Below are positions 15,076-58,571 of a stretch of DNA of 64,000 bases, one piece after another. How positions within the stretch are numbered: position 1 is the stretch's first letter; each line of letters begins with the position of its first letter. Under the pieces are notes generated by a model. That model was not told the origin of the DNA. It saw only the letters and a list, made by a program, of their open reading frames with translations, and did no database searches. A program made the position numbers and the translations under genes. Where the stretch lies: IMG/VR virus record IMGVR_UViG_3300021964_000020. One strand, 5' to 3'. Source of the DNA: an uncultured virus (IMG/VR IMGVR_UViG_3300021964_000020). Its lineage: Duplodnaviria > Heunggongvirae > Uroviricota > Caudoviricetes.

Positions 15076-15351
15076 TTATTTTTTCAAATTATCTAAAATT
15101 TTTTTGATTAAATCGTCCTGATCGAAGACATTCACATCAGGCATAAACACCATTCCTTGTGGTGTATCGGGTTCTCTTATGAAAACTGTAGGTAAGGAGT
15201 CATCTTTTAATTCGTTTGTAATTTGACCCCATAAAATAGGATTATCATCGACATCATACTCCTCAAATAAAATGTCCATACTTGAAAGTCGTTTCTTTAG
15301 ACTCTCACAGTATGGACACCCTTTCATTGTGAACACACAAACGGTATTCAT
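15076..15351 (-). CDS. Glutaredoxin
   Basis: CPYC active site; LPTVFI cis-Pro motif; 91 aa. Confidence 0.88.
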   Translation of the reverse strand: MNTVCVFTMKGCPYCESLKKRLSSMDILFEEYDVDDNPILWGQITNELKDDSLPTVFIREPDTPQGMVFMPDVNVFDQDDLIKKILDNLKK

Positions 15352-15656
15352 TATAAACTCTCTAATATTGTAGTATAACTTTGATCAGGTTGTGCTCCCG
15401 TAATTCTACTTACTTCGGTTTCCCCGTCAAAAATAATAACCGTAGGTACACTCCTAATACCTAAACCCTGCGCATATTGACCCTCTTCATCAACATTAAC
15501 CTTAACGAATTCGATGTTTTCATATTGACCATCTAATTTTTCGAGTCTTGGGATTAATGACCTACATGGTCCACACCATGGTGCCCAAAGATCTAATAAT
15601 ACTTTCTTACCTTCTTTCTGTAGTGATACGACCTCCGCCGCTGATACGTTTTCCAT
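15351..15656 (-). CDS. trxA: Thioredoxin
   Basis: WAPWCGPC active site; KVNVDE; GIRSVPT. Confidence 0.93.
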   Translation of the reverse strand: MENVSAAEVVSLQKEGKKVLLDLWAPWCGPCRSLIPRLEKLDGQYENIEFVKVNVDEEGQYAQGLGIRSVPTVIIFDGETEVSRITGAQPDQSYTTILESL

Positions 15657-39090: not shown

Positions 39091-40209
39091 TTATTGTTGA
39101 CAATGTAAGAAATCGTTACAACCGCCAACAGGGGCTTCCCTCGATATATAAGCAGTCTCACTATCAACCGCCGCTTGGAAATTTGTATCTATTATGGTTC
39201 CACAATACGTTGCACTACCACAACCCGCACTTGCGTATATAAATTGTACAACATCCCCAACACTATAGGTATTAATAGGAATTATAAAATTACCCCCTTG
39301 ACATTGCATACCTTGGGGTGCGTGGAAATCAAATCCATTTATACAGTCTTGGATTCTATAATATGTCTCTGTTTGTGGTGGACTATATACACAATTCTTA
39401 TTTATACTACATATACCCCCATTAGGTGGTCTTTCTACTCCACTTGGGTCAGTAATTGCCGTCCCTCCACCTTGGGCATTAAAATCGTAATATAAAGGAT
39501 GGGACTCACTACACACCCCATAGACTTCACCAACCACACCATCATAAGTGGTAGGTGTGGACGTTAGATTACTAAATGGTGTGATTACAATATTTCCACC
39601 TTGGACATAATCCAAACCATATCCTGATGTATTAATAGAGTTAGGAACAAACACAAACCTACATGATTGAAGTCCCGGTGTTGATGTTGGGTCGTTAGTT
39701 GGGTTCGGAGTTGGTTCGTTTGTTGGGTTTGGTGTTGGTTCATTTGTTGGATTAGGTGTTGGGAATGGGGTTCCCTGTGGTGTGGCCGTCGGGTTTGCTG
39801 TTTTTTCAGGTGTAGGTTGTGGTGTTGCATTAGGTGTTGATGTTGGTGCATTCGTCGGTAAAATAGTTGTTGTTGGATTAGGTGTTGGGTTTGGTGTTGC
39901 AGTAGGTTGTGGTGGAACGTGTTCCATAAAAGATACACATAGATCACAATCAACTCTCGGTGATTCGATAAATATATCTTGTTCGTGACACCCATCACTC
40001 TGTAATCTTATACCGAAGGATAATAATTCATCATCAACATAAAATTCAAGAGGTGAAGTGATTACTTCAGGAAAAGATAAAACAGGTTCTTCAGTGAACC
40101 CCCAATTACTTGTGTCCCCACTTGTGGTTCCTGTATATACATTAACAGGAAAATCACTAATACTGTGATTAGGGTCTGTACTTAAACCTATTCTAATTAA
40201 CTTACTCAT
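39091..40209 (-). CDS. Pro/Thr-linker protein with Cys-rich modules
   Basis: PT linker; middle module shared with the 697-aa protein; C-terminal module shared with the 1747-aa protein. Confidence 0.75.
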   Translation of the reverse strand: MSKLIRIGLSTDPNHSISDFPVNVYTGTTSGDTSNWGFTEEPVLSFPEVITSPLEFYVDDELLSFGIRLQSDGCHEQDIFIESPRVDCDLCVSFMEHVPPQPTATPNPTPNPTTTILPTNAPTSTPNATPQPTPEKTANPTATPQGTPFPTPNPTNEPTPNPTNEPTPNPTNDPTSTPGLQSCRFVFVPNSINTSGYGLDYVQGGNIVITPFSNLTSTPTTYDGVVGEVYGVCSESHPLYYDFNAQGGGTAITDPSGVERPPNGGICSINKNCVYSPPQTETYYRIQDCINGFDFHAPQGMQCQGGNFIIPINTYSVGDVVQFIYASAGCGSATYCGTIIDTNFQAAVDSETAYISREAPVGGCNDFLHCQQ

Positions 40210-40212
40210 CTA

Positions 40213-41388
40213 TTAACAACTTGGAACGTTATATCCTAAATTATTCATTGCATTAACTATTAAGTCAGCATAGTATTGTGGGGTAGATCCCGCAATTACA
40301 TCTTGGACACCCGAGACTTCATTCTTATCACTCAATCCCGAAGTACCTGCATAATACCCAAGACCATTAAATACCGCATTTATGAAATTTTGGTACTGTG
40401 GGTAGATATCCTGTCCACCTGATAATGTATCTACTTGGAAAATTATACCTCTATGAGATGTTGGTGTTGTTGCATTTTCCAATTCGTTTCTAAGTTGTGC
40501 AATATCCGCATCACCACTTACACTACCATCGGTCCACCCACTCACAGTTATTCTTTCCGCTTCATATCTATTGTTACTTTCATCAGCAAAGGCCAAGTTC
40601 ACCACATTATACGAAGGATTTGATGGTGGAGTTGCAATCCATTGAATTGCCCTTTCATCACTTTTATTAGTAATCGTTACTCTTTGATTATATAAACTCA
40701 CGTCGTTATTATAGAATGGTAATAAACAGTTCTGTAGTATGTTATCCCTCATATTAACAAGTGGGGATAATGTTGTATTCATCGAACCTGAACTATCGAA
40801 GAATATATTAATCTCAGTTTCCGTATTAATTAAAATCGTGGGTGTTGGTGTTGGTGATGGTTGTACTGTTGATTGTGGTGTTGCCGTTGGGAATTGTGTT
40901 GGTGTGGGGTTCGGTGTTGCAAATGGTGTTGCTGTTGGTGGTGCGGTAATTTCTAATGTGGGGTATGGTGTTGGTGTTGGGCAGGTATCGGGGTCATAGA
41001 CCACTTCAAAAGATATTCTGTCATAACACTCAAAGGTCTTAGAATCATTTATATATATATTTTCAACTATATATCTTGGTGTATTGTCTCCGTCACATAC
41101 ACTAATCACATTAACGTTGTCCTCTAACTTCAACCAATACTGAGTGTCAAACTCAATATCATGAAAAATTATTTCTGAAGGTTGTGGCGTTCCATTTGTT
41201 ATTAATGGATCATTATCTCCAATGTATATGGGATAATCTCTATAATTTCTCGCATTTGATGATGGCCAAGAACCATTTGCAGTATTAGGGTTGTTCAATG
41301 GTGTAAATGGTCCATAAGGAGATAACCCAATACTTAAATCAAAGTTATTAGGTGATTCAATATCATAAACACGAATTAATAGTCCCAT
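40213..41388 (-). CDS. Pro/Thr-linker protein with C-terminal vWA-like domain
   Basis: PT linker followed by INIFFDSSGSM (MIDAS DxSxS) and LAFADE. Confidence 0.7.
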   Translation of the reverse strand: MGLLIRVYDIESPNNFDLSIGLSPYGPFTPLNNPNTANGSWPSSNARNYRDYPIYIGDNDPLITNGTPQPSEIIFHDIEFDTQYWLKLEDNVNVISVCDGDNTPRYIVENIYINDSKTFECYDRISFEVVYDPDTCPTPTPYPTLEITAPPTATPFATPNPTPTQFPTATPQSTVQPSPTPTPTILINTETEINIFFDSSGSMNTTLSPLVNMRDNILQNCLLPFYNNDVSLYNQRVTITNKSDERAIQWIATPPSNPSYNVVNLAFADESNNRYEAERITVSGWTDGSVSGDADIAQLRNELENATTPTSHRGIIFQVDTLSGGQDIYPQYQNFINAVFNGLGYYAGTSGLSDKNEVSGVQDVIAGSTPQYYADLIVNAMNNLGYNVPSC

Positions 41389-41431
41389 ACTTCATATAAA
41401 TACTTACGAATAGACTTTATATATAAAACAA

Positions 41432-41875
41432 TTAAGATAAAAGGTTAATGTATTTTAAGATCTTTTCTTTAAATTGTCCATGGTAATCGTATTTATCAAA
41501 ATCATAGTTTTCTAAAATATTTTTATAGTGACTTAGGTAACTATCTCTACTTATAATTTTAATCTCTTGATTGTTAATTATTTTAGTGATGTAGTTAGGG
41601 TAATCTATATCCAAATACACATCAATGAACTCTCTATTGGGTATCGTAATAAACATTCTTTTCTTTTCTCTAAAGGGTGTTCTCTCACCATTTTCATTTA
41701 TTTCATACTCACCCAAACTCTTTAATACATTAAAGACTACTTCATCTATAACAATAATGTCAACCTCTCTTTTCCTTGATTTTATATCAATTCCATGATG
41801 AATCATTGATCTTGACCCTACAAGGACAAAATCACCCCCAATTAAATCGTATATTTCTTTAATTAAATGATCCAT
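41432..41875 (-). CDS. Nucleotidyltransferase-like protein (Pol-beta superfamily)
   Basis: FVLVGS..EVDIIV..FIDV pattern; probable start ATG at 41875. Confidence 0.5.
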   Translation of the reverse strand: MDHLIKEIYDLIGGDFVLVGSRSMIHHGIDIKSRKREVDIIVIDEVVFNVLKSLGEYEINENGERTPFREKKRMFITIPNREFIDVYLDIDYPNYITKIINNQEIKIISRDSYLSHYKNILENYDFDKYDYHGQFKEKILKYINLLS

Positions 41876-41900
41876 AAAAAAAACCCTCATTGAGGGTTTT
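41876..41900 (-). terminator. Intrinsic terminator
   Basis: AAAACCCTC/GAGGGTTTT stem with U8 on the minus strand, after the 697-aa gene. Confidence 0.7.
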
Positions 41901-41905
41901 AATTT

Positions 41906-43999
41906 TTATTGTGGTGTTGAGGTTGGTTCAATACCTTCATTGAACGGATTCTCAGGATCTCCACCCCCACTTTCACAATCAATTGATCCAACACTAAGTA
42001 CTACACCATCAATATCAATGACTACATATTGTGGTCCAATTGATGTTTGTGACCCCGCATTTTGATTTGTACTAATAAAGTAATATCTCGATGGATTACC
42101 CTGATAAGGGGTGTTATTTGAATTGTATAGAGTTTCATCTTGTAAACCACTTATTTGTGTATTAAAACCTGTACCAAATACTAATGTACTCGCTAAATAA
42201 TTGGTATCACAGAAGTCGCTCACTGAAAATCTTGCTGATGATATAAAGAACTCATTCTCCGCAACTACCAATGTTGATGTAGGTGTTGGTGGTGGTGTAT
42301 TCGTTGGTGCTGGAGTAGTACCTGTCGAACATGGACCTTCAGCCGTAACATTTGTTGTACCATATGTTACAGATACCGTACCTGTTTGTGCACAGAACGT
42401 ACCGTATCCTCCCGGTGGGAAACTAAATGATTGTGGATTACCACTACAATCCATGTAGGATATTTGTCTGTTAGGATCACCAAACGATCCTGAATCGTCG
42501 TAAGTATATTCCGTACATGATACTGCCGCTGTTGGAGATGCGGTTGGGTTAGGGGTTGGTCGTGGTGTGGATGTAGGTCCTACTCCACCACCTGAGGTAC
42601 AATCACCCTCTAATAATATGGTAGTTGTACCATATTGTGCGGATGCTGATCCTTGTTCTGCACAGAATACACCGTATCCTCCCGGTGGGAAAGTAAATGA
42701 TTGTGCGATACCATCACAATCATTGTAGTATATTCGTCTGTCAGGGTCACCAAACGATGCTGAATCGTCGTAACTATATTCCACACACGTAATTGCTGTG
42801 GTTGGGTTAGGGGTTGCTGTTGGTTCAGGGGTTGGTGTTGCCGTTGGTGGTGTCCATACACATGGTGCTGTTGTACATGCACCTCCTTGTGGTAATAAGT
42901 TTACATCAACAGGGAATACCGATGTTGTATTACTAAATGAATCCCAATATTGAGGTGTGATTGTTGAACACACACCGAAGATTTGTGATGTACCCGTATC
43001 ATACGACATCATCTGATTAAAAGTGGATTGTTGTATACCATTCACAGGGTGGTTCCATCTAAGACCGAATCTCTCAGTATCCATTGGTGCATCATTATCT
43101 ACTTCAACAAATTCACAATATCCAACAGGTGTTAATGTTGGTGTTGATGTTGCGGTTGGTATTGGTGTTTCGGTTGGTTCAGGGTCAAACACACATTGGA
43201 TGTCTTTCGTACAAACACCACCATTACCTAAATCTTCTGTTAATACTCCATCAATAGGTGTTGTTGTATTACTTTGTTGATCCCAAACACTTGGGAATAA
43301 CGTACTACATACGGAAACAACAAATCCTTCTTGGTTGTTGTAGGTGTAAGGAACGCTAAGCATGCTACCAAACACTTGATTAGTTAATCCATTTTCAGGA
43401 TTATTCCATCTAAGACCTGTTCTTGCCGTATCAACTTCAGGTGAAACCCAAACGTTGTAACACAAACCGTTTATTTGTGCGGTTGGTGAGGGTGTCGGTG
43501 TTGGTGGTAATGCTTCAGTTAACGATGGTGTTGGTGTTGGTGTGTCTGCAGTTGGACTTGGTGTTGGTGTTAATGTTTCAGTTAACGATGGTGTTGGTGT
43601 TGGTGTGTCTGCAGTTGGACTTGGTGTTGGTGTTGGTGTGTCTGCAGTTGGACTTGGTGTTGGTGTTAATGTTTCAGTTAACGATGGTGTTGGTGTTGGA
43701 TCATTAGTTGCGGTTGGGAACGGTGTTGATGTTGGGTTTGCGGTTAACGGATATTCAACAAAATATGTTGGACAATCCGATTGTACTAATGGGTTGGTAT
43801 TAACTAAAAAGACACTCGTGGCATTATCAGGTACACTAACTAAAACACCATTTTGAACCTGTGTTAATGTTAGGTTTTCCGCCAAATCCGAGGTACCGTA
43901 TATGGTAGCAATGTTATTACTATCAATTGATGTGTGATAAATCGTGTATGGTCCTGAGTTCGTTCCTGATGTTAACGTGACCGTAAAATGTCTTGCCAT
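41906..43999 (-). CDS. Multidomain Pro/Thr-linker protein with duplicated Cys-rich modules
   Basis: N-domain paralogous to the 1747-aa protein; 2x GLRWN..VCST module; 2x C.EY.YDDS.SFGDP..FPPGGYG.FCA module; tandem DNA repeats at ~43520-43700. Confidence 0.8.
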
Positions 44000-44053
44000 G
44001 TTCTTTTTTTTTATATACTTTATAAATATCGTAGAATTATAAAATGTCCTGAT

Positions 44054-44617
44054 TTAAACAGGGTTATCGAAAAATTCTTCTATTGTCCCCACTAATTCAC
44101 AATCCAATGTTGCGGTTGGACTTGGTGTTGATGGTGGTGTTGATGTTAAAGTTGGGCTCGGAGTAGGTTCATTAAACTCAACCACCGAAATAATCATATC
44201 ACAATCTGTCTGTTCTACAACTGAGATAGTCATGTTACAATCTGTCTGTTCTACAACTGAGATAGTCATAGTACAGTCTAATGTGAACATTTCGACAACA
44301 GAGATACCAATATTACAATCTAAAGGTGGTGGGGTTGGGTTTGGTGGACATTGTTCACAATCTATGTTTAATAATTGTACCTGAAATCCACCCTGTTTTT
44401 TAGGGTTTTCCGATGGTGGTGGATCAATATGTCCATCACAGTGTTCGACAAAAACATAAAGTGGTCCCGTGTAACTACCTCCGTCCCAAGTATGTGGTAA
44501 ACTGTGTGTTCCTAATACATTGGCATTATCTATATTATATGTCGTACCCGTATATATGTTGTATTGATCACATACACCGTTATCATATAGATTTGTAATG
44601 GTAATTAGTACACCCAT
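44054..44617 (-). CDS. Small Cys-motif repeat protein
   Basis: Four tandem DCxxxISVVE units (36-nt DNA repeats), a PT linker and DCELVGTIEEFF. Confidence 0.75.
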   Translation of the reverse strand: MGVLITITNLYDNGVCDQYNIYTGTTYNIDNANVLGTHSLPHTWDGGSYTGPLYVFVEHCDGHIDPPPSENPKKQGGFQVQLLNIDCEQCPPNPTPPPLDCNIGISVVEMFTLDCTMTISVVEQTDCNMTISVVEQTDCDMIISVVEFNEPTPSPTLTSTPPSTPSPTATLDCELVGTIEEFFDNPV

Positions 44618-44667
44618 GAGTTTTTACTTCTTATTATAAATACTTTGTTAGAAGGATTACTTTAAAT

Positions 44668-44694
44668 AAAAAAACCCACCGAAGTGGGTTTTTT
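44668..44694 (-). terminator. Intrinsic terminator, bidirectional
   Basis: AAAAAACCCAC/GTGGGTTTTTT stem with a UUCG-type loop on the minus strand. Confidence 0.8.
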
Positions 44695-44713
44695 AATATA
44701 GTTGTTGTTTTTA

Positions 44714-45256
44714 TTATAATTCGTTATCACACGTTCCCCCAACCTCATAGATTGTAGAATCCGCCAAGGCGACGACATCTCGAAAGTATGTATAAATTGT
44801 ACCTTCGTATAATGAATTACCCTGATTAACGTTAATATTATCACCCACAACAGGACTTGGTGTTCCTCCTTTTTGAACCCAATCAGCATTTGAGATAATA
44901 ACAGTTTCTGGCGATTCACCATTGATGCTGTTACATTTTTGGAATTGGTGATTGGTTTGAGGGTCTTCTCCCAATGTTGGTGACGGTGTAGGTTCGGGAG
45001 TATCTCCCTCACAATTATCTAATCCCGCCCACGGAACTGAGTTAGGACATGTTCCTGTTGATGTTACGGTACCTCCTGAAATGGTATCAGCAACTTGATA
45101 CGTCACACCATTTATTAGGTCTTGTTTACTTACCCCTGTAGCAATAGTTGTATTTGCTGGGGACCCATTACAATGTATCCCTACGATTGTAAAGTTATCT
45201 GCCTCTGTGGTTCCCGTAAATTGGGACTGCATCGTAAATGTTACTTGATATGCCAT
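44714..45256 (-). CDS. Two-domain Pro/Thr-linker protein
   Basis: N-domain has IATGVSKQDLINGV, similar to the 697- and 1747-aa paralogs; short PT linker; Cys-bounded C-domain. Confidence 0.75.
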   Translation of the reverse strand: MAYQVTFTMQSQFTGTTEADNFTIVGIHCNGSPANTTIATGVSKQDLINGVTYQVADTISGGTVTSTGTCPNSVPWAGLDNCEGDTPEPTPSPTLGEDPQTNHQFQKCNSINGESPETVIISNADWVQKGGTPSPVVGDNINVNQGNSLYEGTIYTYFRDVVALADSTIYEVGGTCDNEL

Positions 45257-45329
45257 TTTAATTTATTTTTTTAATCTGTTTATTATAAATATCTCTGTTT
45301 TTAGAAATGTTTAGTTTATTATTTATTTG

Positions 45330-48300
45330 TTATTGGAAACATCTTAAATCCTCACAACCATCCATTAAATCTTGATTCGTAATTATGGCGGTGGCGTCAA
45401 CACCTAATCCTGTTTCTGAGACTCGACCACAGTAAGTTGCCTCATGAGGACAATCAGTACCATACGCGTATTGTACATAATCACCAACATTGATTTCAAA
45501 AGGATTTAGACTTAAGTTACCATCCTGACAAATTTCTATACTACTCGCATAATATATTTGGTCTGTAATACAATCTCTAATACTAATGTCTGCAATCATT
45601 CCACCTCCTCCCGGATCCTTAGTAAATGTAGATTGTATTAAACTACTCTCCGTACATCCATTCGCATCTGTGACTATCACATAGTAATAACCTTCCGCAA
45701 GGTTACTGAAAGTTTGTGTTGGGTTTGATGCTGTCACACCCGTTATTGTCGCAACTAAGCTACCACCACCAACAGTATATGGTGATGTGGTATCTCTGTA
45801 AAGTCTATATGTTTTATTCCATGTACCACCACCCGAGGTAACCGTAATAGATCCGTTCGCACCCGCAACAAATCCCGATATCAATACTGTGTTCGCCGTT
45901 GGTTGTGAAACCACAACACTATACGATTCAGTACAACCTATCATATCCCTCAAATGAACAGTATATGTACCTGATGAAAGGTTTGTATAAAAATACGATG
46001 TACTTGAGAATCCAATCCATGAACCCGTGTTAAGTCTTACTTCATATAGACTAAAAGTCCCACCTCCATTCGCACCCGTCGGATTAGACACTAAGATTCC
46101 TCCATCCGATCCGCCGGCACACGATACTGAATTTGCATTGAATGTCGCACTTGGTGCTGATTTACTTAAAGTAACACTACTTGTGGATGATAGACATGAA
46201 CTTCCATCTTTAACTCGAATACTATAAGTCCCAACACTTAAAGAACTAAATGAATTAGATGTTTGCCATGTTGACCCACCATTCTTAGAATATTGGTAGG
46301 ACCCTACACCACCTGATGCTGTCACTTCAATACCACCATCACTACCATCGTGACATGTTGGGTCTGATTTAGTTGTGGTAAAAGTAACCGCTGCTGGTTG
46401 TGTTATTGTTTTATTATAGGACCTTGTACAACCATCAGTGTCTTTAACAGTGATTGTATATGTTCCCGACGATAAATTTGAATAGGTTTTAGGGAATGTT
46501 GTTGTATAACTACCACTACCTAATTTAACACTATAAGGTACTCCATTACCCCCACTTGGGTTAGAAACCGTGATTGATCCATCAGATCCACCGTTACATG
46601 TTACATTTGATTGAGTTACAGTCGCCGCAACCGCACTTTTAGAAAGAGTAACAGTTCGGGATGCGGTACAACCATTCTGATCTGTAGCAATTAAAGTATA
46701 TGACCCTTCACTTAAGTTTGTGTGTGATAATGAAGTGGTTGCCGACCCATTTAAAGTATATGTCTTACTACCCGTACCACCGCCAACGGTGAAAGTGATA
46801 GACCCGTCAGATCCACCATCACAAGTCGGATCGGTATGACTATCAGAAATTGTTATTGCTGATGGTTGTGATATGGTGACTGAGTATGATCTCGTACACT
46901 CATCTTGGTCTCTTAGGTATACGGTATGATTCGCAACCGAAACGCCAGTAAATAGGTATGAGGTACTTGAGAAATTAATCCAAGAACCACTATCTAACTT
47001 AACTTGGTAATTAGAGAACGTTCCACCACCATTACCACCTGTTGGGTTGGATATTTCTATCGATCCTCTATCACCATTACATAGTGGATTTGATGATGTA
47101 ACCGTTGCACTTGGTTTAGATTTACTTAAAGTAAATGATACAGTATCAACACACGCATTGGAATCTTTCACATAACCCGTATATGAACCTACACTCAAAT
47201 TAGAGAAAGTGGCTGACGTGTAATATGTGATTCCGTTTATTGAATAGAGTTTTGATCCCGTACCTCCTGTCGACGAAAGAGTAACACTACCGTCACTTCC
47301 ATCCCAACATGTGGGATGGGTCACACTCGCAGATGCAACTAATGCAGTTGGTTGAGTTATTGTTCTCGTATATGTGGTTGTACATTCCTGACTATCCCTA
47401 ACACTGAAAGTATAGGTACCCGCACTTAAATTACTAAATGTCTTAGTACTGTTAAATGTGGTCCAAGTTCCTCCTTGCCATTGGTATTGGTATGTTGGTC
47501 CATTACCACCCGCAGGTGTCTGTGCTGTTAAACTACCGTTTGACCCACCGTTACAGGATACATTAGATGTTGATATACTTGAAGTTACCTGTGATTTAGA
47601 TAGTGTTCTCGATGTAGTTCCTGTACATCCATTACCATCTCTAATTGTAATTGTGTATGATCCCGTACTTAAGTTTGAGAATGTGTTTGATGTTTGGTAA
47701 CTACCACTATTTAATTTGTATTCATATGATCCATTACCTCCACTTGCATTAACAGTAATACTACCATCAGTGCTGTTATGACATAACGGATTAGAATATG
47801 TTGTTGTCGCAGTAACGGCATTTGGTTGTGTTAATGTACGATCGTATATCGTCTCACATCCGTTACCGTCTTTGACTGTAATTCTATAAGAACCTGCGGT
47901 TAAGTTTTCATGTGTGACACTTTCTTCTGATGTTAACGGTTGGTATTCTCCCCCACCTAATTTAACCTCATAATCCGCACCTGTTCCTCCCGCAGGATTC
48001 GATATAACGATAGAACCGTCTGATCCGCCGTTACATGTAATATGTGTTAAAGTAATAGTTGCACTAACCGCAACCTTACTGATGTTAACTGAAACACTAT
48101 CAGTACATCCATTCGCGTCACGAACAATAATTCCGTAAGTCCCTTGAGAAAGGTTTGAGAATGTACCTGAGGATTGGTAATTTATGAGGTCTTTCGTGTA
48201 TTCATATGGTGATGTACCACCTGTCGCGGATACTGTGATTTCACCATCAGTACTATTATGACAGGTAGGGTATGTTTTAGATGATTCTGTTACATTCAAT

Positions 48301-50573
48301 ACGTTTGGTTGTGTCACAACCGTTGTGAATGCATATTCACATCCATTTGAATCTTTTACATAAACAGTTTTAGTTCCCGCAGATAAGTTTGAATATGTTT
48401 TAGGGAATGTTGGACTCTCATAAGTACCTCCTGTACCTAACTTAACTTCATATCCACCACTACCTCCTGTTGGTTGTGCAACTGTTACTGATCCGTCACC
48501 CGAACCATTACATGTTAGGTTGGTTTTTGTTAAAGTCGTTGTAACAACAGTTCTATTTAGTGTTTTAGAAACTGATTTTAAACATCCATTTTCATCTCTG
48601 ACTCTAATTGTATATGTCCCATTAGGTAAACCTTCAAATACATTTTCGCTTTGCCAATTAACAAGGTCTTTTGAATATTCTAATTCTCCCGTACCTCCAC
48701 TTGCAGAAACCGTTATAGATCCGTCGGAGTCGGAGTTACATGTTGGTAGTGTAAAGTCTTGTATTAATATAGTAACCAATGATGGTTCTGATATCGTACC
48801 GTCTACTGTTCCAACCTCATCATTAGAATCTTTAATGTAAACTGTATAATCACCCGCAGGTCTGCTAAATGATGTGGATGTCTGATAATTAACACCATCT
48901 AATGAATATCTGTAAGGTGAATCCCCACCTGTTTGTGTTGCAACCGCAATTGTACCGTTTCCACCATTACAAAGTGGATCCGTAATAGTTAAAGTACCTG
49001 AAACAGTGATGTTTGTGATGGATATACTAACAATTTCTTCTCTATATAAACCACCTTGGTCAGTAGATCTTACCCTGATTGAATAAGAAGATTTTGTTTC
49101 GTAATCAAAAACTTCACTACTTTTAAGTACCGCCCCATCTAAATAGAAACTACCATTATCACCTGAACCCGTTCCATTTACTAATGTATAAGTAAAGGTA
49201 TTACTCGAATCGGGATCCGTAGTTGAGAACGTGCCGACTGTTGATCCTGTTGGTGTGTTTTCATCAATGGATGAGTTAGATAATGTTATATCGGTTGGTG
49301 TTTCATTAACATCCAATACTGTTATCGTAAATGTATCTGTATATGTGTTGTTACCACTGTCCGTTACGGTGACTTCTATTGTGTACGAAGATTTTGATTC
49401 GTAATTAAATACAACTGCATTTTTAAGAACACCCGTACTTGTTAAGGTAAATGATGCATTATCGTTACCACTCCCTGTGAGTGAGTATGTAAAGGTTTCA
49501 CTTGTGTCGACATCTAACCCTGTAAATGTACCGATTGTACTACCCGTAGGTTTATTTTCTTGTAGTGTGTTATTACTTAATGTTAAACCGTATGGTGTTT
49601 CATTTTGGTCTAACACATTAACATCCATGTTTTGTTGATATGAGAGACCTCCCTGATCTTCAACATCAACCATAATTTCGTATTGGTTTTTAGTTTCATA
49701 ATCAAAGACAACCGCATTTTTAAGAACACCACTACTTGACAATGAGAATGATGAGTTATCGAGTTGTCCACTAACTAAAGACCATGTATGTGTATCTCCA
49801 ACATCAGAGTCACTAACCACTAAAGTACCAATAGTAGTACCTGTTGCGGTATTTTCTGTTTGTTCTAACGGAGCTGAGGTTATACCTCTTGGTGCGTCAT
49901 TAATTTCAACATCCACTCCGAAGTCACAATTTGGTGTGGGACTTGGAGTCGGTGAGGGTGACGGAGATGGTGAAGGTGATGGACTTGGGGTTGGTGGTGG
50001 CGTTGCACTCGGGGTAGGACTTGGTGATGGTGATGGACTCGGAGTAGGACTCGGAGATGGTGATGGACTTGGTGTCGGTGATGGTGTCGCACTCGGTGAT
50101 GGTGTTGGTGTAGGTGTTGCAATATCAGTATCTACTCCGAAATCACAATTCGGTGTTGGACTTGGGGTCGGCGAAGGACTCGGAGATGGACTTGGTGATG
50201 GTGTTGGAGACGGGCTTGCCGTTGGATTAGGTGTTGGTTCAGGAGTTGGTGATGGGGTCGGTGAGGGTGAAGGTGAAGGTGATGGACTTGGACTCGGTGT
50301 TGGGGTTGGGGTTGCGGTCGGTCTTGGTGTTGGTAAAATTATTTCGTCATCAATAGAACATGAATCGTTATATAATAATACAATTGTTGCGGTATCAGGA
50401 ACTGACACCCTAACACCGTTTGTACTTGTTAGGTCTGTATATGTTACTCCTGTCGCATTTTGTCCTGTCGATACCCTTGTGGCAATATTTGATGGACCTA
50501 CTTGGTCATAGTATATGGTATATAAACTATGTGAGGTTCCTGATGTAATCTTTATGTCAAATATCCTTGCCAT
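45330..50573 (-). CDS. Adhesin-like protein: PT/PS linkers, 3 cadherin-like domains, ~14 SprB repeats, Cys-rich C-terminus
   Basis: EN..TG..(I/V)GT..D.D..F(D/N)YE(T/S)K cadherin motifs x3; C.G..DG.I.V...GG..Y.Y..F.NL..G.Y.I.V.D.NGC SprB repeats; 2x CDFGVD. Confidence 0.88.
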
Positions 50574-50612
50574 TATTAATAATATATACTTTTTATATCG
50601 TTTTTTAAATCG

Positions 50613-53600
50613 TTATACATCCGCAAAAAATTCTGTCGCTCCACCTTCGAATGTACAGTCACATAATATGTGTACATATTGTAATTCCGTCATTGTTGAG
50701 TTCCATTCTGTTATCACGAATACTGCGTTATTGTTTGTGTCTATAAATCTTATTCCTGTGTCAAATAGTTTATTAGTTCCATTTGGATTTAATGTTCCAA
50801 CTGAGTGAGAAACTGAACTAACTTGAGTTCCGACAGGAGTTACGTGTTCACCAATACATGTTGATGATGATCCACCACTATACGTTCTGTAATAGATTGT
50901 ACATGTTGTATTATCGTACCACCATTCTTTACCCGAAGTACTCACTCCTTGAGTTTCTGCACAATATCCACCCAAGTCATAAATACCCGATCCACTAATT
51001 GTCGATCCCGTACTTATGAAGATATTTTTATAAATCGCCGTACCACATTCAGGTGGACAATCCACTGATGTTGGTGATGGTGTTGGAGTAGGACTTGGCG
51101 ATGCCGTAGGTGTTGGTGTCGCAATATCCACATCTACCCCAAAGTCACAATTAGGTGTTGGGGATGGTGTTGGGCTTGGGCTCGGTGATGGTGTAGGTGA
51201 TGCCGTTGGGTTTGGAGTACTACTTGGCGACGGACTTGGACTTGGTGATGGTGTCGGTGCCGGTGTACTACTTGGTGAAGGACTTGGAGTTGGTGAATGA
51301 CTTGGTGTTGGTGTTGGTGTCGCAATATCAGTATCCACCCCGAAATCACAATTAGGTGTTGGGCTCGGTGATGGGCTCGGACTTGGTGACGGTGTAGGTG
51401 ATGGACTCGCAGTCGGGTTAGGTGTACTACTTGGTGTAGGACTTGGACTCGCAGTCGGGTTAGGTGTGCTACTTGGTGTAGGACTCGGCGATGGAGTCGG
51501 TGTAGGAGTCGCAATATCAGTATCTACTCCGAAATCACAGTTTGGTGTTGGTGAAGGACTTGGAGACGGTGATGGTGTCGGACTTGGTGATGGACTTGCC
51601 GTTGGATCAGGGGTACTACTTGGTGTAGGTGATGGGCTTGCAGTTGGGTTAGGTGTACTACTTGGTGTAGGACTCGGTGTAGGACTCGGCGATGGAGTCG
51701 GTGTAGGAGTCGCAATATCTATATCAACACCGAAATCACAGTTAGGCGTTATACTTGGTGTAGGACTCGGTGATGGTGATGGTGATGGGCTCGGAGTCGG
51801 TGATGGACTCGCAGTTGGGTTTGGTGTCGTACTTGGTGTAGGTGATGCCGTTGGATCAGGGGTACTACTTGGTGTAGGTGATGCCGTTGGTGCTGGTGTT
51901 GCACTTGGTGATGGTGTTGGTGTTGGTGTCGCAATATCAGTATCCACCCCGAAATCACAATTAGGTGTCGGAGATGGTGATGGACTCGCAGTCGGGTTAG
52001 GTGTACTACTTGGTGTAGGACTCGGCGATGGACTTGGAGTTGGAGATTGGCTTGGGGTTGGAGTTGGAGTTGCAATATTAACATCTACCCCGAAATCACA
52101 GTTAGGTGTTGGACTTGGACTTGGCGACGCAGTTGGGTTTGGAGTACTACTTGGTGTAGGACTCGGAGTCGCACTTGGTGACGGTGTAGGTGTAGGAGTC
52201 GCAATATCAGTATCTACTCCGAAATCACAATTAGGTGTTGGGCTCGGTGATGGTGTCGGTGATGCCGTTGGTTCTGCCGTAGCCGGTGGTGTTGCTGTTG
52301 GATTAGGTGTTGGTTCAGGAGTTGCGTTAGGTGTTGCTGTTGGTGTAGGGGTTGATATGTTTACATCAACTCCGAAGTCACAATCCGCAGTTGCTGATGG
52401 TGATGGGGTTGGAGTAGGACTTGCAGTTGTTGATGGTGTAGGGGTAGGAGTGCTACTTGGACTTGGTGTTGGTGTTGGAGTCGCAATATCAGTATCTACA
52501 CCGAAATCACAATTAGGAGTACTACTTGGAGTAGGACTTGCAGTAGGTTCAGGTGTGTTACTTGGTGTTGGACTTGGTGTTGGGGATGGGGATGGTGTAG
52601 GTGTTGGTGTTGTAATAATAATATCTACCCCGAAGTCACAATTAGGTGTTGGAGTAGGACTTGCGGTTGTCGAAGGAGTTGGGGTAGGAGTCGCTGTAGT
52701 TGACGAAGTCGGTGTTGGTGTTGCAATATCAGTATCCACTCCGAAATCACAATCGGCTGTTGCTGAAGGTGACGGAGTTGGTGTAGGGCTCGCAGTTGTT
52801 GAAGGGGTTGGAGTTGGTGTTGCAATATCAGTATCTACTCCGAAGTCACAGTCCGCAGTTGCCGTTGGACTTGGTGTTGGAGTAGGACTACTACTTGGTG
52901 TAGGTGTAGGAGTTGCAATATCAGTATCTACACCGAAATCACAATCTGCGGTTGCCGATGGACTTGGTGTTGGTGTTGGACTTGCGGTAGTTGAAGGTGT
53001 AGGGGTTGGGGTTGATATGTTTGTATCTACTCCGAAATCACAATCTGCAGTTGCCGTTGGGGTTGGTGAATGACTTGGTGTAGGAGTTGGTGTTGCAATA
53101 TCAGTATCTACTCCGAAGTCACAATCGGCAGTTGCTGAAGGTGACGGACTTGGTGTTGGTGTTGGAGTTGAACTTTCTGTTGGTGATGGTGATGGTGTAG
53201 GGGTCTCAATATCGGTATCAACTCCAAAATCACAATCGGCCGTTGCTGAAGGTGACGGAGTTGGAGTAGGATCTGCAGTTACACTTGGACTCGGAGTTGG
53301 AGTAGGATCTGCAGTTACACTTGGACTCGGAGTTGGAGTAGGATCTGCAGTTACACTTGGACTCGGAGTTGGAGTAGGAGTTGAACTTTCTGTTGGTGAT
53401 GGTGTTGGTTCAAAATATTCTTCAAAATCACCGTCAATGTCACAATCCTGTGTTACTGTTGGGGTTGGAGTTGGTTCAGGAGTACTTGTGCCTGTTGGTT
53501 CAGGAGTACTACTTGCCGTTGGTTCAGGAGTACTTGTAGATGTTGGTTCAGGTGTACTACTTGCCGTTGGTTCAGGAGTACTTGTGCCTGTTGGTTCAGG

Positions 53601-56600
53601 TGTACTACTTGCCGTTGGTTCAGGTGTTTCTGTTGCGGTTGGTGCCGGTGTTGCCTCAGGTGTACTACTCGCAGTTGGTTCAGGTGTTTCTGTTGCGGTA
53701 GGTTCAGGTGTACTACTTGGGGTTGGGTTTGGTGTTGCATCAGGTGTACTACTTGGGGTTGGTGTAGGTTCAGGAGTACTACTCGGAGTAGGACTCTGAG
53801 TTGGGTATGGTGTCGGTGTTGGTGTGGATGTTGGTTCGGGCATTCTTGTCTGTCCAACACAATATCTACTAATCTCATATGTGATTGAACCGTCATTTAC
53901 GATATCAATGATTTCATAACAATCATTGTTAACATATTGAATCACATTTGCACTTTGAGTGATTAATTGTATTTCAACAAAATCACCTATAGAGTAATTG
54001 GAATCGTATACCGCGTATTTTATATCACCTAAATTATAGTTACGTAATTTAAACGCGGTTATCTCATTACAATCTATGTCAAAGACAGGTCTTTCCAAGT
54101 CATTGATATGTGGTATATCCTTACAATCAAGTTCATCTTGGAAATACTGTTGTGTATTCAGATCTAAATTTTCAAACTTCTGTTCTGTGTGTTGTAATAA
54201 AATTAAATCTTCTCCATCACCGTTAAAGATAACAACAGTATCACATGGGAAATCCGTGTGTCCTGTCGGAGTATTTAATACAGTTACATTTAAATGATAA
54301 TAAAGATCTCTACTACAATAGTCCAAATCCAATGAAGTAACCTCCACCGGAAATCCAAATTCATTAATTAAGTAATCACCATTCTCATAGTAATCCTCAT
54401 CATAACTACAACATGGGTCTACACCTTCTTCAGGTCTAACTGTTAATTCTTCAGGATATTTCTCAATAAATTCAAAACGACCACTATCATTTGTTAATAC
54501 CCTTACCTTACTATTGGGAAGGACACTGAATCTATTATTAATTCTATTAACCTTAATGGACCCCATACAATCTTTATTATCGACTAAGACTGTTTGGTAC
54601 CACATAGAGAATCCATAACCCTCTATAGGTGAATCAAAGAAAGATTGTGAACCATATGGACAATCTTTGTAAGATGCCGATAGTAAGTGATCCCCAATTC
54701 TAATATCTTCTGAATTTATATATGTCGCATCCCCCGAATCAATGTGTGTTTGAATGACTCTCCAATCATCAGTTTCCCCAATGATAAGACCATCATTTAA
54801 TTTTAAGACTTTAGTATTTTGTCTAATACCATAATCGAATGTTGGTCTGTATTGAACCTTAGGATGTAATGTGTATCCAAAGTAGTTATCACAATATGTT
54901 ACTCCACTCTGAGATTCAATTGGGTTTTGATTTTCATTAGGTAAAAAAGAATCTATAGTGTAATTGAAATAATGACTCTTACCTGTGGGGTCCCACTCCA
55001 TTTTTTGTTGGAGACCTTCTATCCTGATTTTTTGATCACAGTTCGCCGCATCAGTAATGATGACATCAAAAACGTCCGTCTCTTTAACATCTCTAATAAC
55101 AAACGTACATGAATTTATACCGTTAGATACCGAACCTGAGGACCCACCCTCATCAAAGTCCGCACCCATAGCACATGGACCTAAGTATTCAACAGTGTAT
55201 CCTGTGATGGCCTCATTGTACCCACCTACACAATTCAAGAATATATTTACCGGCCAATCGGTATTGTATGGTGGACAATCAGTACATGGGTCACCGTCAT
55301 CTACAGTATCTTCATTTCCAAAAGTAATACCTGAAACTTCCAAGTAAATGTCAGAAGACAATGTACAATTATCTTCATCTTCAGGTAAAACATACATATC
55401 TCCTGTACCACGAACACTAACCTGTGGGTCACATTCGGTACTTCCTGTCAAATATGCCGATGACCAATAAAAATCAAACGTAGATGGATCGATACAATCG
55501 AAGTCAGTTTCTAAGTACTGATCACCATTGTATGGCCAATTAGGGTTTAAAGTGTAAAGTTGTACATCATATTTGTACGGTACTATCTTGATCTTTCTAA
55601 CACCATCACTATCAGTGTATATTTCAAAACTTAGTATTGGTGCAATTTCATAATCATATTGCTCACTATTAGACGTTAATTCAGTATTGAAATTTGTGTC
55701 TGTTTCAGTATTTCCCGTTGAATATTCGAACCATCCCGCATGATGAGATATCGTATCATATCCCGTGTACTTGGTTCTCTTATAGAACATTTTATTGATT
55801 TGATTATCAATAATGTCTCTAAGTTCGTTCTCCCATAAACAATCAAGTATCTCTCTCTGTGGATTCAAGTGACACTTAAAATCACAAAGAAGTGGAAGGT
55901 GTCTCGTTTTATCAAACTGAACACCATTAAAATCAACCTCCTGTATTGAGGTACAATCCGATGTTATTTCAAATGGATCAAATAATCCCGCATGTGTGTA
56001 CTGTTTTGTGATTTGATCACAAGTCATACCACTTTGTATGTTGATCGTTTCACCACTTAGGGTGATGGTATCATCACCGGTGAAAGTTAGTCCATTAAAA
56101 TCGATGTGAAGGGTATAAGTGACCCCACTAATAATTGTTAAACCTCTGAAAACATCCTTATCACCAAGGATTAGTGTTTCTAAATCTTCTTCAATTGCCG
56201 TTTCGAATTCAGGAAAAACAACATCAGTGTACTCATTAATTCGACATGGTTTTTCATAGTCATATTTTGATCTACCAAATGCATGGTTTTCAATGACATT
56301 ACCCCCTGTCCATAATGTGGTTGCGGGAACAAATTGTTCAATGATCTCAACCCAATGAGGACTAATTCTATTAATAAACTCGTTAATTGTTGGGTTACTG
56401 TATGGGTTAGGTACGGTTTCTAAATAACTTGAATAGATATCCTGTAATTGGATGTATGATTTTTGGAACCTAACCGTATGTGAGTTTCTTATTTGTTCAT
56501 TTAAAACCTGATCTAAGAATTCCGCAAACGTAAAACCTGTTTGTGGGGGTATAGTATTGGTACCAAATGATACCTCTAACTCTCTCGATTGTCTATAAAT

Positions 56601-58571
56601 GTCGTATTCAATACCCTGAGCGGAAGAAACATATATCTGTATGTTCTTTCTGTTGAGTGTTTGTGAATCTTCATCACCTAATAACTCCGCCTTTAGGTTA
56701 TCAATTGTGTTATGCAATTCATAACCGTAATCAAGACCATAAAACTGTCTATGTAAATCAAAATAATCCTCACCGTAGGTAAAGTCTTTATTTTTGGTTT
56801 TAATAATCTTAGGATTTACCGTTAAATCTGAATTTTCCTCGTCTAATTCAAGACTTGACCTGTGTTCTAAAGTTTCTTCGTACCAACCCGCACCTTTTTG
56901 GAAGAACACATCATTATCTTCACTGATGATTGGTTGTACATCACCGAATTTGGTTGTCCCTGTTAAGACTATTGGATATTCATTAGTATTGTACGATGTT
57001 GTCCCCGAAGTGACCGAAACACCATATGTAAAACCTGTTGTACTTAACTCACCTATTGTAAATGTCTTAGTACCTTGTGTAAGGTCGTAGATATCACTAT
57101 CAATGTCAATATCATTCTTTCTTACATCCTCAAATTTATAGGTGTGTTCGTTGATTTTAATCAACGGTTCAGGTGCACCAATAAATCTTAAAAAGAATTC
57201 TATTGCTTTCCTTGTACCTTTAGATTTATATATGTGGACAAGATTAATAACTAATCTTCTGTAGAACTCTATCTCCGCCTCAACGACGTTCATCCCAAGA
57301 CTTACCCCATCAAATTGACTTTCAACTCTCGAATACAGGGTTTGTTCTAATCTTTTCTCATCAAAAAGGTTTACGTTATCTAAACCTAATGTGTTGGATA
57401 GATTCTTTAATAGGGTGTCAGGTATGTTATTGATTTTATCATAACTCACATTTCTCATGTAAGCTATGTTGTCAATAAATTTCTTTATACTATCAAACCC
57501 ACCACCATAAATTTGGAATATGGACCCCATTCTTTGGTCCTCAGTATCAAATTCATTTAAAGATGCCGTGGTTAAGAACCTTGTGATGATATTGGATTTA
57601 TATTGATCTACCTCATCACCTATTGTTTTTAGTTTATCGAGATATCCCGCATATTGAGTACCTGCAATCTTAATATTCCAACCGTCTTTAAAGATCGGCC
57701 AACTTACACGTGTTATTGTGGTTTCTGTTTTTGACCCGTCTAAACTATCTTGTGGTAATTTAAATTCGATTGTGTATTTAGGGGTACTCTCTCTATCTAT
57801 AATGAGTGATTCTAAATCATCTAAACCCCCGTAGAATTCCTCCACAATTGAATCAATAGGTCTTACTAAATAACTTTGATCGTATGTTGACCCCGTAAAG
57901 GGTTTACCTTTAACTGTTAAGGTTATTAAACCATCATTACCCGCTTTTTGGTAATTGATGATATCGAATGTCTTACCCTCAACTGATAAGGTGTATTTTT
58001 TATATTTTGAAAAGAAGTTTCTAAACTCATTTATGACCTCGGGTTGTGTATTACTTTGAGGTTTATCAAGTACAATATCCAACGGATTGAATATTTTCGA
58101 CTTCTCTAATTTAAAGGTTGTGATGTGACTACCTGAATTGTAGTTAATATTCTCAGCGGTGTATTGTGAGAATGATACGGGAGTATCTGCATCAATGTAG
58201 AATCCCGCAGGAAACTTCTCAATGATTCTTTTAACCGACGCAGAAAGTCTTTTACTTAATGACCCATATAAAGTTTTGTTACCTCCGTCTTTATTGGATC
58301 TGAAAGTTACCTTCTTGTCTTTTGTTTTTTGTGATGTTGATGATTGTGTTTGTGGGGCTTCTGTTTCCTGATTTAAATCATCTAATGTTAAAAATTCAGA
58401 GAACGGAAGACTCTTAAAACTTTTATTATCTCTCTCAGGAATGGATTTTTCTACAGAAAAGTTAGTGGCAGTAAGTTGTGACGACCCATCGGTAATTTGA
58501 TTACCGACCAAGTTGTCGTTAAAGGTTTCCCTTCCACTTGCTACCTGACTTGGAACTTTTCTTTTCGCCAT
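50613..58571 (-). CDS. Baseplate-wedge-like structural protein with degenerate Hint domain and ~900-aa mucin-like repeat region
   Basis: [38 protein letters not shown] baseplate motif; Hint-like segment; P/T/S repeats with 16 CDFGVD units. Confidence 0.8.
51065..53845 (-). repeat. Coding Pro/Thr/Ser repeat array punctuated by 16 conserved ~30-bp units (CDFGVDxxI)
   Basis: Plus-strand GCAATATCAGTATCTACTCCGAAATCACAA-like units separated by variable in-frame PT linkers. Confidence 0.92.

What the first reader, a model, noticed from the sequence alone, without database searches (positions are those of the whole stretch)
39091..58571. Candidate cellulosome-like branched virion appendage built from one-Cys docking strands on mucin-like linkers
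Seen: the baseplate-type 2652-aa protein carries 16 copies of CDFGVDxxI (one Cys, alternating hydrophobic residues, too short to fold alone), spaced by variable P/T/S linkers. The same motif occurs twice in the 1747-aa adhesin. Related strands occur in the 187-aa protein (DCxxxISVVE x4) and the 372-aa protein (DCDLCVSFME). A second class, C-x-h-x-G-x-h-x-E-(F/Y)-F, occurs three times ([33 protein letters not shown]). Several neighbouring proteins start with an ~80-90-aa beta-rich domain with a Cys near its end, and the 697-, 1747- and 180-aa ones are clearly paralogous. Inference: each strand docks into such an N-domain (donor-strand complementation, possibly disulfide-locked), so the baseplate protein acts as a scaffoldin and partners with their own strands create branches displaying adhesin modules. 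I know of no described phage system like this.
Basis: partly seen in the sequence, partly recalled or inferred. Interest (0 to 1): 0.85.

Follow-up and report, generated by a model that had tools for sequence, protein, structure and literature searches.

The report
Snap-in strand docking on phage fibres
An uncultured jumbo phage seems to hang its adhesion proteins on a long flexible baseplate thread by a snap-in joint: short cysteine-bearing strands on the thread supply the one strand missing from a small domain at the start of each adhesion protein, a pilus-like trick not found described for viruses.

Summary
The motifs are real (16+2 CDFGVDxxI; 11 synonymous DNA variants of the invariant core). 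The N-terminal ~80-aa domain is a large unnamed family (293 representatives), nearly always at residue 1, usually with one unpaired Cys. AlphaFold gives a six-stranded Ig/FN3-like sandwich that aligns to solved domains only from their second strand. The three family members where the domain is internal come from two independent gene fusions, each placing a Cys strand of this family 8-9 residues before it. Folding such a fusion makes the strand the missing first strand and raises confidence (pLDDT 84 to 91). Strands and domains co-occur in relatives and are jointly absent from outgroups, though this amounts to few independent events. So the strands most likely dock as donor A-strands, and the baseplate-wedge protein acts as scaffold. 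The 187/372/391-aa N-termini are not demonstrably homologous. The scan saw these strands three times on other DNA and read them as self-associating; the fusions argue otherwise. A close relative has the bS21-phage gene layout.

The parts
50613..58571 (-). 2652-aa scaffold protein: conserved baseplate-type core (about residues 1-1585), about 915-aa Pro/Thr/Ser thread with 17 Cys strands, small Cys-containing tip domain, final strand at the C-terminus
   Evidence: relatives; no Pfam/PHROG hit, no GenBank phage hit for residues 1-1000
57117..57644 (-). baseplate-wedge-like segment (T4 gp7 / P2 gpI type; a lead, not a family assignment)
   Evidence: ESM Atlas top hit PF23786 Baseplate_wedge score 0.90, 162 shared features, also Tail_P2_I at 0.84; in relative G001 the orthologue lies five genes after gp25 and gp6-like genes
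51120..53234 (-). array of 16 CDFGVDxxI strands; spacings 37,27,33,31,33,37,43,43,51,43,47,73,67,63,67 residues (widening toward the tip, all odd)
53412..53444 (-). proximal strand [11 protein letters not shown] (small residue at position 5)
50625..50657 (-). C-terminal strand [11 protein letters not shown], same type as the strand in the natural fusions
45330..50573 (-). 1747-aa adhesin: N-domain, PT linker with two CDFGVD strands, 3 cadherin domains, SprB repeats, Cys-rich tip module shared with the 372-aa protein
   Evidence: Pfam cadherin x3, SprB x11; shared tip
50334..50573 (-). N-domain of the 1747-aa protein: six-stranded Ig/FN3-like sandwich lacking the first strand; single Cys72 (50358-50360) just before the last strand
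50118..50147 (-). [10 protein letters not shown] strand 1 of the 1747-aa protein
49899..49928 (-). [10 protein letters not shown] strand 2, directly in front of the first cadherin domain (same place in homologues P0005, P0008, P0062, P0085)
44714..45256 (-). 180-aa protein: divergent N-domain (45005-45256, Cys70), short linker, small variable tip domain; no strand of its own; candidate leaf that fills the array
   Evidence: (0 of 77 relatives carry a strand)
44054..44617 (-). 187-aa protein: unassigned N-terminal domain, four closely spaced CxxxISVVE strands (44177-44317) and a C-terminal CELVGTIEEFF strand (44069-44101); candidate secondary hub
   Evidence: N-terminus not linked to the N-domain family
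41906..43999 (-). 697-aa protein: N-domain (43742-43999, Cys76), PT linkers, five small Cys-rich modules; no strand detected
41432..41890 (-). 152-aa gene inside the cluster, no family hit, probably not part of the appendage
   Evidence: same position in G001
40213..41388 (-). 391-aa protein: unassigned N-terminal domain, strand-like CYDRISFEVVY (40996-41028), PT linker, about 200-aa C-terminal domain with a DSSGS motif (vWA-like by motif only)
39091..40209 (-). 372-aa protein: unassigned N-terminal domain, CDLCVSFME strand (39922-39948), PT linker, two Cys-rich modules shared with the 697- and 1747-aa proteins

Best explanation
A modular virion appendage joined by donor-strand complementation. 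The 2652-aa baseplate-wedge protein extends an unfolded Pro/Thr thread (up to roughly 300 nm if fully extended; inferred from length) that displays ten-residue amphipathic strands C-x-F-x-h-x-h-x-h. Each strand is the missing first (A) strand of an Ig/FN3-like domain that begins the 1747-, 697- and 180-aa proteins; it pairs with the domain's first strand and buries its alternating hydrophobic residues in the core. The lone Cys of the strand probably meets the lone Cys of the domain's last hairpin and locks the joint by a disulfide once the particle is released into oxic water. Partners carry interchangeable adhesion modules; those with strands of their own (1747, 187) add a second tier. Shown by computation: the motif, the domain family, its strand-less fold, the fusions, folding of strand plus domain in a natural fusion. 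Inferred: binding in trans in this phage, the disulfide, virion location, partner choice, branching, adhesion role.
For: (1) Domain at the very N-terminus in 147 of the best 150 representatives and 129 of 129 hits in 81 further loci. (2) The 3 internal cases all have a strand of this family 8-9 residues upstream; they are fusions of two genes that are adjacent and separate in relatives (56/69% and 41/39% identity) and arose twice (AU p 2e-89). (3) Domain alone: six strands, pLDDT 83.8, pTM 0.70; fusion: strand becomes E10-16, the domain's first strand lengthens from 5 to 11 residues, pLDDT 90.7, pTM 0.83. (4) Chains at Z>=5 rise from 1 to 111; for 8 of 8 chains present in both top-50 lists the aligned range keeps its C-terminal end and starts 15-24 residues earlier, with 10-25 more residues aligned. 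(5) Exactly one Cys in 123 of 141 and 109 of 110 domains, invariant in 29 of 29 across subfamilies; one Cys per strand. (6) Strands accompany the domain in 30 of 31 IMG/VR loci by pattern (the 31st by eye) and 31 of 31 metagenome loci of 10 kb or more (25 by pattern, 6 by eye); 17 of 17 distant baseplate loci have neither. (7) A strand was detected in only 13 of 150 and 0 of 77 domain-bearing proteins, so most need one in trans. (8) CDFGVYVQNF and CDFGAVVSNF occupy the very position of the fused strand in split relatives, tying the window's motif to the fusions.
Against: The folded fusion carries CTFSATVQNY, not the window's [10 protein letters not shown], and is in cis, where AlphaFold readily forms a hairpin; only 3 of 82 alignment rows cover the strand. 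All fold matches are below Z 8, which may mean only a common beta-sandwich, the two models are different sequences, and a longer model scores higher anyway. No coordinates were returned, so Cys-Cys distance was not measured. Co-occurrence reduces to one origin of the system and 1-3 changes for the arrays. Some loci have more domains than detected strands (L116: three domains, one or two strands). 6 of 141 domains lack the Cys. Fusion of neighbouring genes puts upstream sequence next to the domain by default. No virion data exist; the baseplate label rests on a borderline Atlas score and gene order. Three earlier notes of the scan favoured self-association.
Confidence: 0.68

Rival explanations
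1. Self-associating knots: the strands pair with each other, within or between copies of the thread, into small disulfide- or calcium-stabilised beta sheets that stiffen a floppy stalk; the N-domains attach somewhere else.
For: Perfect amphipathic pattern with an acidic face D-x-D-x-D in many relatives; up to 22 copies per protein with graded spacing; 12-residue period in the 187-aa protein is tight for bulky partners; favoured by three earlier notes (unchecked AI notes).
Against: Many relatives have a single strand next to a single N-domain gene (14 of 31 loci); two independent fusions and the model place the strand in the domain; it leaves the strand-less fold and lone Cys of the N-domain unexplained. 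Self-association itself was not tested here.
Confidence: 0.15
2. Docking is real only for the single 'class 2' strands (small residue at position 5) and within one chain; the 1747-aa protein completes itself with its own strand, and the 16-copy array has another partner or role (for example binding a host or capsid protein by beta-zipper).
For: The fusions involve CTFSGSV/CTFSATV strands only; the 1747-aa protein has a strand 60 residues after its domain; strand 2 resembles the last strand of a preceding cadherin repeat (recalled pattern).
Against: The two classes grade into each other at the same gene position (CDFGAVVSNF, CDFGVYVQNF, CTFNVTVVEQ); arrays go with the 180-type domain in 16 of 16 loci; most domain proteins have no strand of their own.
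Confidence: 0.12
3. The N-domain is a complete six-stranded anchor that binds a fixed virion site, and the strands are selected spacers or protease/glycosylation signals in a mucin-like thread.
For: The domain alone is modelled confidently (pLDDT 83.8); no direct binding test succeeded.
Against: Alignment to solved domains starts at their second strand; fusions; strict N-terminal position; joint presence and absence.
Confidence: 0.05

Closest known systems
Chaperone-usher pili, donor-strand complementation and exchange (PMC9046445, passages read)
   Same: Incomplete Ig-like fold with a groove completed by a strand of alternating hydrophobic residues from another chain.
   Different: There the missing strand is the C-terminal one, the donor is an N-terminal extension of the next pilin, a chaperone and usher are needed, disulfides are within the subunit and the product is a linear fibre. 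Here the first strand is missing, donors are repeated internally on a PT thread, no chaperone or usher was seen, and a Cys sits on each partner.
Branched phage receptor-binding systems: KP32 branching domain plus conserved peptide (PMC13352976, passages), phiKp24 hyperbranched fibres on T4gp10-like domains (PMC9700779, passages)
   Same: A baseplate-anchored primary protein offers docking sites for secondary and tertiary adhesion proteins with exchangeable tips.
   Different: Polarity is reversed (folded docking domain on the scaffold, short peptide on the partner); rigid tailspikes with a few sites versus 18 sites on a flexible thread; no T4gp10-like or depolymerase family was detected in these proteins.
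Cellulosomal scaffoldin, cohesin-dockerin (own knowledge)
   Same: Repeated docking sites on Pro/Thr linkers recruit diverse partners through one small terminal module.
   Different: No cohesin or dockerin by Pfam; sites are ten-residue strands, not folded domains.
Bacillus endospore appendages Ena1 (10.1101/2020.08.21.260141, passages)
   Same: Extracellular fibre locked by disulfides between a flexible connector peptide and lone Cys residues of another subunit's beta domain.
   Different: Ena subunits are complete jellyrolls stacked by sheet augmentation; the authors note that pili using fold complementation lack covalent stabilisation, which is the combination proposed here.
SpyTag/SpyCatcher (engineered split CnaB domain; structures 4mli, 9oj3 appeared at Z 4.6 and 4.1, tied with many others)
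   Same: Short strand completes a beta-sandwich and may be fixed covalently.
   Different: Isopeptide bond, engineered; the match is too weak to imply kinship.
bS21-encoding Bacteroidetes phages (PMC9723584, abstract and section 7 read); moraphages (PMC12619734, abstract and passages) as a possible related lineage
   Same: Relative G001 has bS21 on the reverse strand between portal and prohead protease, with T4-like terminase, portal, capsid, sheath, tube, gp25.
   Different: The window itself does not reach that region; the parts read do not describe these tail-region proteins (no SprB, cadherin or adhesin mention in PMC12619734).

Membership tests
Donor-strand-complemented Ig-like assembly (works-like) | Acceptor is an Ig-like sandwich lacking one strand | tested here: met
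   Model and fold comparison; Z values below 8
Donor-strand-complemented Ig-like assembly (works-like) | Donor has alternating hydrophobic residues and completes the fold | tested here: met
   Consensus; natural fusion folded, (in cis, class 2 strand)
Donor-strand-complemented Ig-like assembly (works-like) | Binding in trans between separate chains | not tested
Chaperone-usher pili (membership) | Missing C-terminal strand, donor at the N-terminus of the next subunit | tested here: not met
   Aligned ranges keep the C-terminal end and lack the first strand; donors are internal
Chaperone-usher pili (membership) | Chaperone and usher genes, pilin families | tested here: inconclusive
   No such Pfam family in the 26 window proteins scanned; the rest of the genome is not held
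Cellulosome (membership) | Cohesin and dockerin domains | tested here: not met
   No Pfam hit in the cluster proteins; sites are 10-residue strands
T4gp10-type branched receptor-binding systems (membership) | T4gp10-like branching domain on the primary fibre, N-terminal peptide on the secondary | tested here: inconclusive
   No Pfam/PHROG/PDB sequence hit; the scaffold core was not folded; polarity of sites appears reversed
Baseplate wedge proteins (PF23786 / Tail_P2_I) | Wedge domain in the N-terminal core | tested here: inconclusive
   Atlas 0.90 with 162 shared features; HMM scans negative; gene order agrees
Disulfide-locked fibres (Ena-like, works-like) | Inter-chain disulfide between connector Cys and domain Cys | not testable with these tools
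   One Cys on each partner; no coordinates or chemistry available
bS21-encoding Bacteroidetes phages | bS21 on the reverse strand among terminase, portal, protease, capsid genes | tested here: met
   Met in relative G001, whose 763-aa marker is 77% identical to the window's; not testable in the window itself
vWA domain (391-aa protein) | vWA fold with MIDAS motif | tested here: inconclusive
   DSSGS motif present, Pfam negative; relative L067 has a Pfam VWA domain in the same slot but profile comparison gives 1.6%

The most novel reading that the evidence does not exclude
These phages build a two-tier, covalently locked bottle-brush: each baseplate wedge trails a thread with 18 donor strands, about a hundred sites per virion if six wedges are assumed, filled by A-strand-less FN3-like 'catchers' that snap on and are then disulfide-locked after lysis, with a sequence code (bulky versus small residue at strand position 5 matched by small versus bulky residues in the catcher's penultimate strand) directing large adhesins to the tip and small variable modules to the array. 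That would be a natural, orthogonal, redox-locked tag/catcher family.
Probability: 0.35. Interest if true: 0.92.

Novelty: categorically new. Interest (0 to 1): 0.8.

Why it matters
Phage adhesion devices are known as rigid fibres and spikes joined at a few fixed sites. A flexible scaffold that recruits many exchangeable adhesins by fold completion would be a new way to build a virion surface and would explain the many PT-rich, cysteine-rich orphan genes beside the baseplate in a widespread group of aquatic jumbo phages. It assigns a testable function to an unnamed family of several hundred domains, and the test is small: an 80-residue domain and a 10-residue peptide. If the disulfide forms, the pair is a natural counterpart of SpyTag/SpyCatcher, with diverged variants that may be orthogonal.

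Tried and rejected
No whole genome held. No GenBank phage match for the scaffold core, the two N-domains, the 304-aa neighbour or two distant N-domains. No Pfam or PHROG family for the N-domain proteins' N-termini; PDB sequence hits of alignment A3 were to its PT-linker columns only; Foldseek gave nothing at E<=0.001. A scan with the C-terminal part of the 763-aa gene found nothing. Two alignments were too diverse for pattern scans. Homology of the N-domain to SprB repeats: not supported (7%). Homology of the 187/372/391 N-termini to the family: not supported; 187 versus 372 only 23%. A strict code 'class 1 strands bind only the 180-type domain': attractive in IMG/VR loci (16 of 16 versus 0 of 14) but weakened by L147/L153/L158/L206/L207 (Val at position 5, no 180-type gene) and L187/L188 (arrays without a 180-type hit within 6 kb), and by phylogeny. 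Cellular genomes: one pattern hit, rejected as chance since no profile matched; one pattern is a weak test of absence. Contigs of two RNA runs cover parts of 44000-50600 (22 and 17 of 30 bins) but cannot show transcription. The 535-aa plus-strand ORF at 51466-53073 is the antisense shadow of the PT repeats. Literature searches found no paper on such a phage system; the library lacks most subscription papers, and no supplements were opened.
Full report
Observation. The cluster 39091-58571 lies on the minus strand of a phage-like window (primase, RuvC, exonuclease, SbcC, tail fibre). Chance expectation of the hexamer is 0.0002. The invariant hexamer is encoded by 11 DNA variants among the 16 array copies, all synonymous. 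Across loci and proteins fetched, 430 isolated Cys strands in PT linkers gave 58 distinct 9-mers with consensus C-x-F-[DG]-[VI]-[DE]-[VI]-x-[VI], Phe at position 3 in 91%.

Context. No cultured relative was found. IMG/VR relatives were. One of them, record G001, has a T4-like terminase, portal, capsid, sheath, tube and gp25, a gp6-like gene, and bS21 on the reverse strand between portal and prohead protease, the layout reported for Bacteroidetes-infecting bS21 phages (PMC9723584, abstract and section 7 read). The orthologue of the 2652-aa gene follows the gp25/gp6 block. Its conserved N-terminal segment is nearest to baseplate-wedge clusters in the ESM Atlas (0.90, a borderline score), while HMM scans are negative. 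The baseplate label is therefore likely, not proven.

The N-domain. A profile of six sequences found 293 representatives at E<=0.001; of the best 150, 147 have the domain at the N-terminus. A Cys near its end is present in 141 of 146 long enough to judge (4 shorter ones dropped); it is the only Cys of residues 1-80 in 123 of 141 (fusions and proteins under 80 aa left out) and the only one in 109 of 110 proteins of a second search, and invariant in a 29-row alignment across subfamilies. What follows the domain varies widely: cadherin, SprB, and many small Cys-rich modules. The 180-aa protein belongs to the superfamily by profile comparison (96%; reversed control 0.3%); the N-termini of the 187-, 372- and 391-aa proteins could not be linked. 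AlphaFold models the 1747 domain as a small beta sandwich (pLDDT 83.8, pTM 0.70) with weak matches to FN3 and Ig domains (best Z 5.2).

The key evidence is natural fusion. In the three representatives where the domain is internal (P0102, P0114, P0150) it is preceded, 8-9 residues upstream, by DCTFSGSVVDY or DCTFSATVQNY. A wider scan gave 454 of 460 redundant hits at the ORF start; the other six were these three, two cases of an upstream in-frame Met, and one domain with a 13-residue PT leader. In 81 further loci 129 of 129 hits were N-terminal. P0150 matches two adjacent separate genes of L117 (56% and 69%), P0102 two adjacent genes of L078 (41% and 39%); in the split form the strand is followed by a PT linker and a tip module, which the fusions have lost. 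A tree of the downstream protein (29 rows) puts the fusions in two places and rejects their monophyly (p-AU 2e-89). At the same position split relatives carry CDFGAVVSNF, CDFGVYVQNF and CDFNGSITPF, so the window's CDFGVD motif and the fused strand are one family.

Folding the P0150 segment (strand plus domain, 106 aa, 82 rows of which 3 cover the strand) gave pLDDT 90.7 and pTM 0.83; the strand is E10-16 and the domain's first strand grows from 5 to 11 residues. Chains at Z>=5 rose from 1 to 111. For the 8 chains in both top-50 lists (2dru, 1ccz, 3gdb, 2w92, 5lsp, 8pmu, 2csp, 3zk0) the C-terminal end of the aligned range stays and the start moves 15-24 residues earlier, with 10-25 more aligned residues. 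The reading is that the free domain starts at strand B and the Cys strand is strand A. This also explains why the domain is confined to the N-terminus. Limits: all Z are under 8, the two models are of different sequences, the strand was in cis, and it was not the window's own strand. From the recalled FN3 topology the start of strand A lies beside the FG hairpin, where the domain's Cys sits, so a disulfide is geometrically plausible; no distance was measured.

Distribution. Seventeen of 17 distant baseplate loci with a complete ORF and at least 4 kb downstream have neither strands nor domains (plus-strand ORFs only; the fragmented L064 was left out and is also negative). Among 31 hand-chosen IMG/VR loci with a domain, 16 have arrays of six or more strands and all 16 have a 180-type gene; 14 have one detected strand, one 1747-type gene and no 180-type gene; L100 has a 180-type gene and a few strands seen only by eye. 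All 31 metagenome loci of 10 kb or more carry a strand (25 by pattern, 6 by eye). On a tree of the 763-aa neighbour (30 rows) the system arises once and the arrays need 1-3 changes, so this agreement is weak as statistics. Against a tidy picture: L116 has three domains and one or two strands, and single-strand loci with Val at position 5 lack a 180-type gene, so partner choice for the 16-copy array is open; the 180-aa protein is the best candidate, and its penultimate strand has Gly-Gly where the 1747 type has bulky residues. A strand was detected in only 13 of 150 and 0 of 77 domain-bearing proteins (the pattern under-detects), so most must get the strand from another chain if they need one.

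Mechanism. Shown by computation: selected strand motif, strand-less fold, two fusions, completion of the fold in a fusion. Inferred: the wedge protein trails an unfolded thread; domains of the 1747-, 697- and 180-aa proteins clamp onto its strands in the cytoplasm; the lone cysteines oxidise after lysis; the 1747- and 187-aa proteins offer further strands, giving a second tier; tips bind host or particle surfaces. I put strand-into-domain docking as a family property near 0.75, the full picture for this phage at 0.68, the disulfide near 0.55 and real branching near 0.5.

Comparison. It works like donor-strand complementation of chaperone-usher pili (PMC9046445, passages) but lacks the first rather than the last strand and uses internal repeated donors. 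Known branched phage fibres use a folded T4gp10-like site on the primary fibre and a short peptide or domain on the partner (PMC13352976 and PMC9700779, passages), the reverse polarity. Ena fibres use connector disulfides without fold complementation (10.1101/2020.08.21.260141, passages). The cellulosome comparison is from my own knowledge and is one of layout only. Eight literature searches (listings seen) found no description of this system; the library is incomplete and no supplements were read. The scan's earlier notes e1-5322299, e1-6089541 and e1-5405696 report the same strands in other genomes and prefer a self-associating stalk; I did not test self-association directly, but single-strand loci and the fusions argue for docking.

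Verdict. Observation confirmed; interpretation supported at its core, unproven in trans binding, covalent lock, virion location and branching. No known family fits; the architecture appears undescribed. Interest 0.8.

Noticed in passing
window 51120-53234 and orthologues in L067, L068, L072, L073, L111, L118, L129: Spacings between strands are almost always odd (15 of 15 in the window array) and widen from baseplate end to tip in most relatives (Spearman 0.8-0.96 in several). Parity may just follow from X-Pro dipeptide indels; the gradient is unexplained.
   Followed up: partly
window 40213-40830; L071, L073, L079, L129 baseplate C-termini: The 200-aa DSSGS-motif domain of the 391-aa protein is fused to the end of the baseplate scaffold or of other thread proteins in relatives, and is replaced by a true Pfam VWA domain in L067: tip modules are shuffled among carriers.
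   Followed up: partly
window 49899-49928; P0005, P0008, P0062, P0085: One strand always sits flush against the first cadherin domain, where the last strand of a preceding repeat would be, so a docked domain could stack rigidly on the cadherin rod.
   Followed up: no
window 41432-41890: 152-aa gene inside the structural cluster with a nucleotidyltransferase-like look by eye (GS...DID-type motif, recalled); no Pfam or PHROG hit; same position in G001.
   Followed up: no
window 15351-15656: Thioredoxin (Pfam E 7e-22); probably serves nucleotide reduction, but relevant if disulfides must be kept reduced during assembly.
   Followed up: no
window 2984-12061: 3025-aa tail fibre with internal repeats and a C-terminal Peptidase_S74 chaperone: the phage has a conventional fibre besides the strand-docked appendage.
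   Followed up: no
L089 416-631 (record G001): Ribosomal protein bS21 on the reverse strand between portal and prohead protease genes.
   Followed up: yes
L028 13439 onward and L100 3-5573 (record G005): The PT thread is a separate gene of roughly 2,700 aa with a different 65-aa Cys-ending N-domain and almost no strands; that N-domain class recurs in L118/L123.
   Followed up: partly
fold search of the N-domain model: Best viral structural matches are several uncharacterised proteins of Virus NIOZ-UU157, two of them stand-alone 77-aa proteins (TM about 0.66, E 0.002-0.02): possibly bare caps of the same family in another phage group.
   Followed up: no
window 44054-44617; L071 18503-18973: Strands with only 12-16 residue period; if each is occupied, domains would stack end to end along an extended chain.
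   Followed up: no
window 60427-61692: The 421-aa baseplate-region protein also has a PT linker and an added C-terminal beta domain, absent from the 266-aa orthologue in L067.
   Followed up: no
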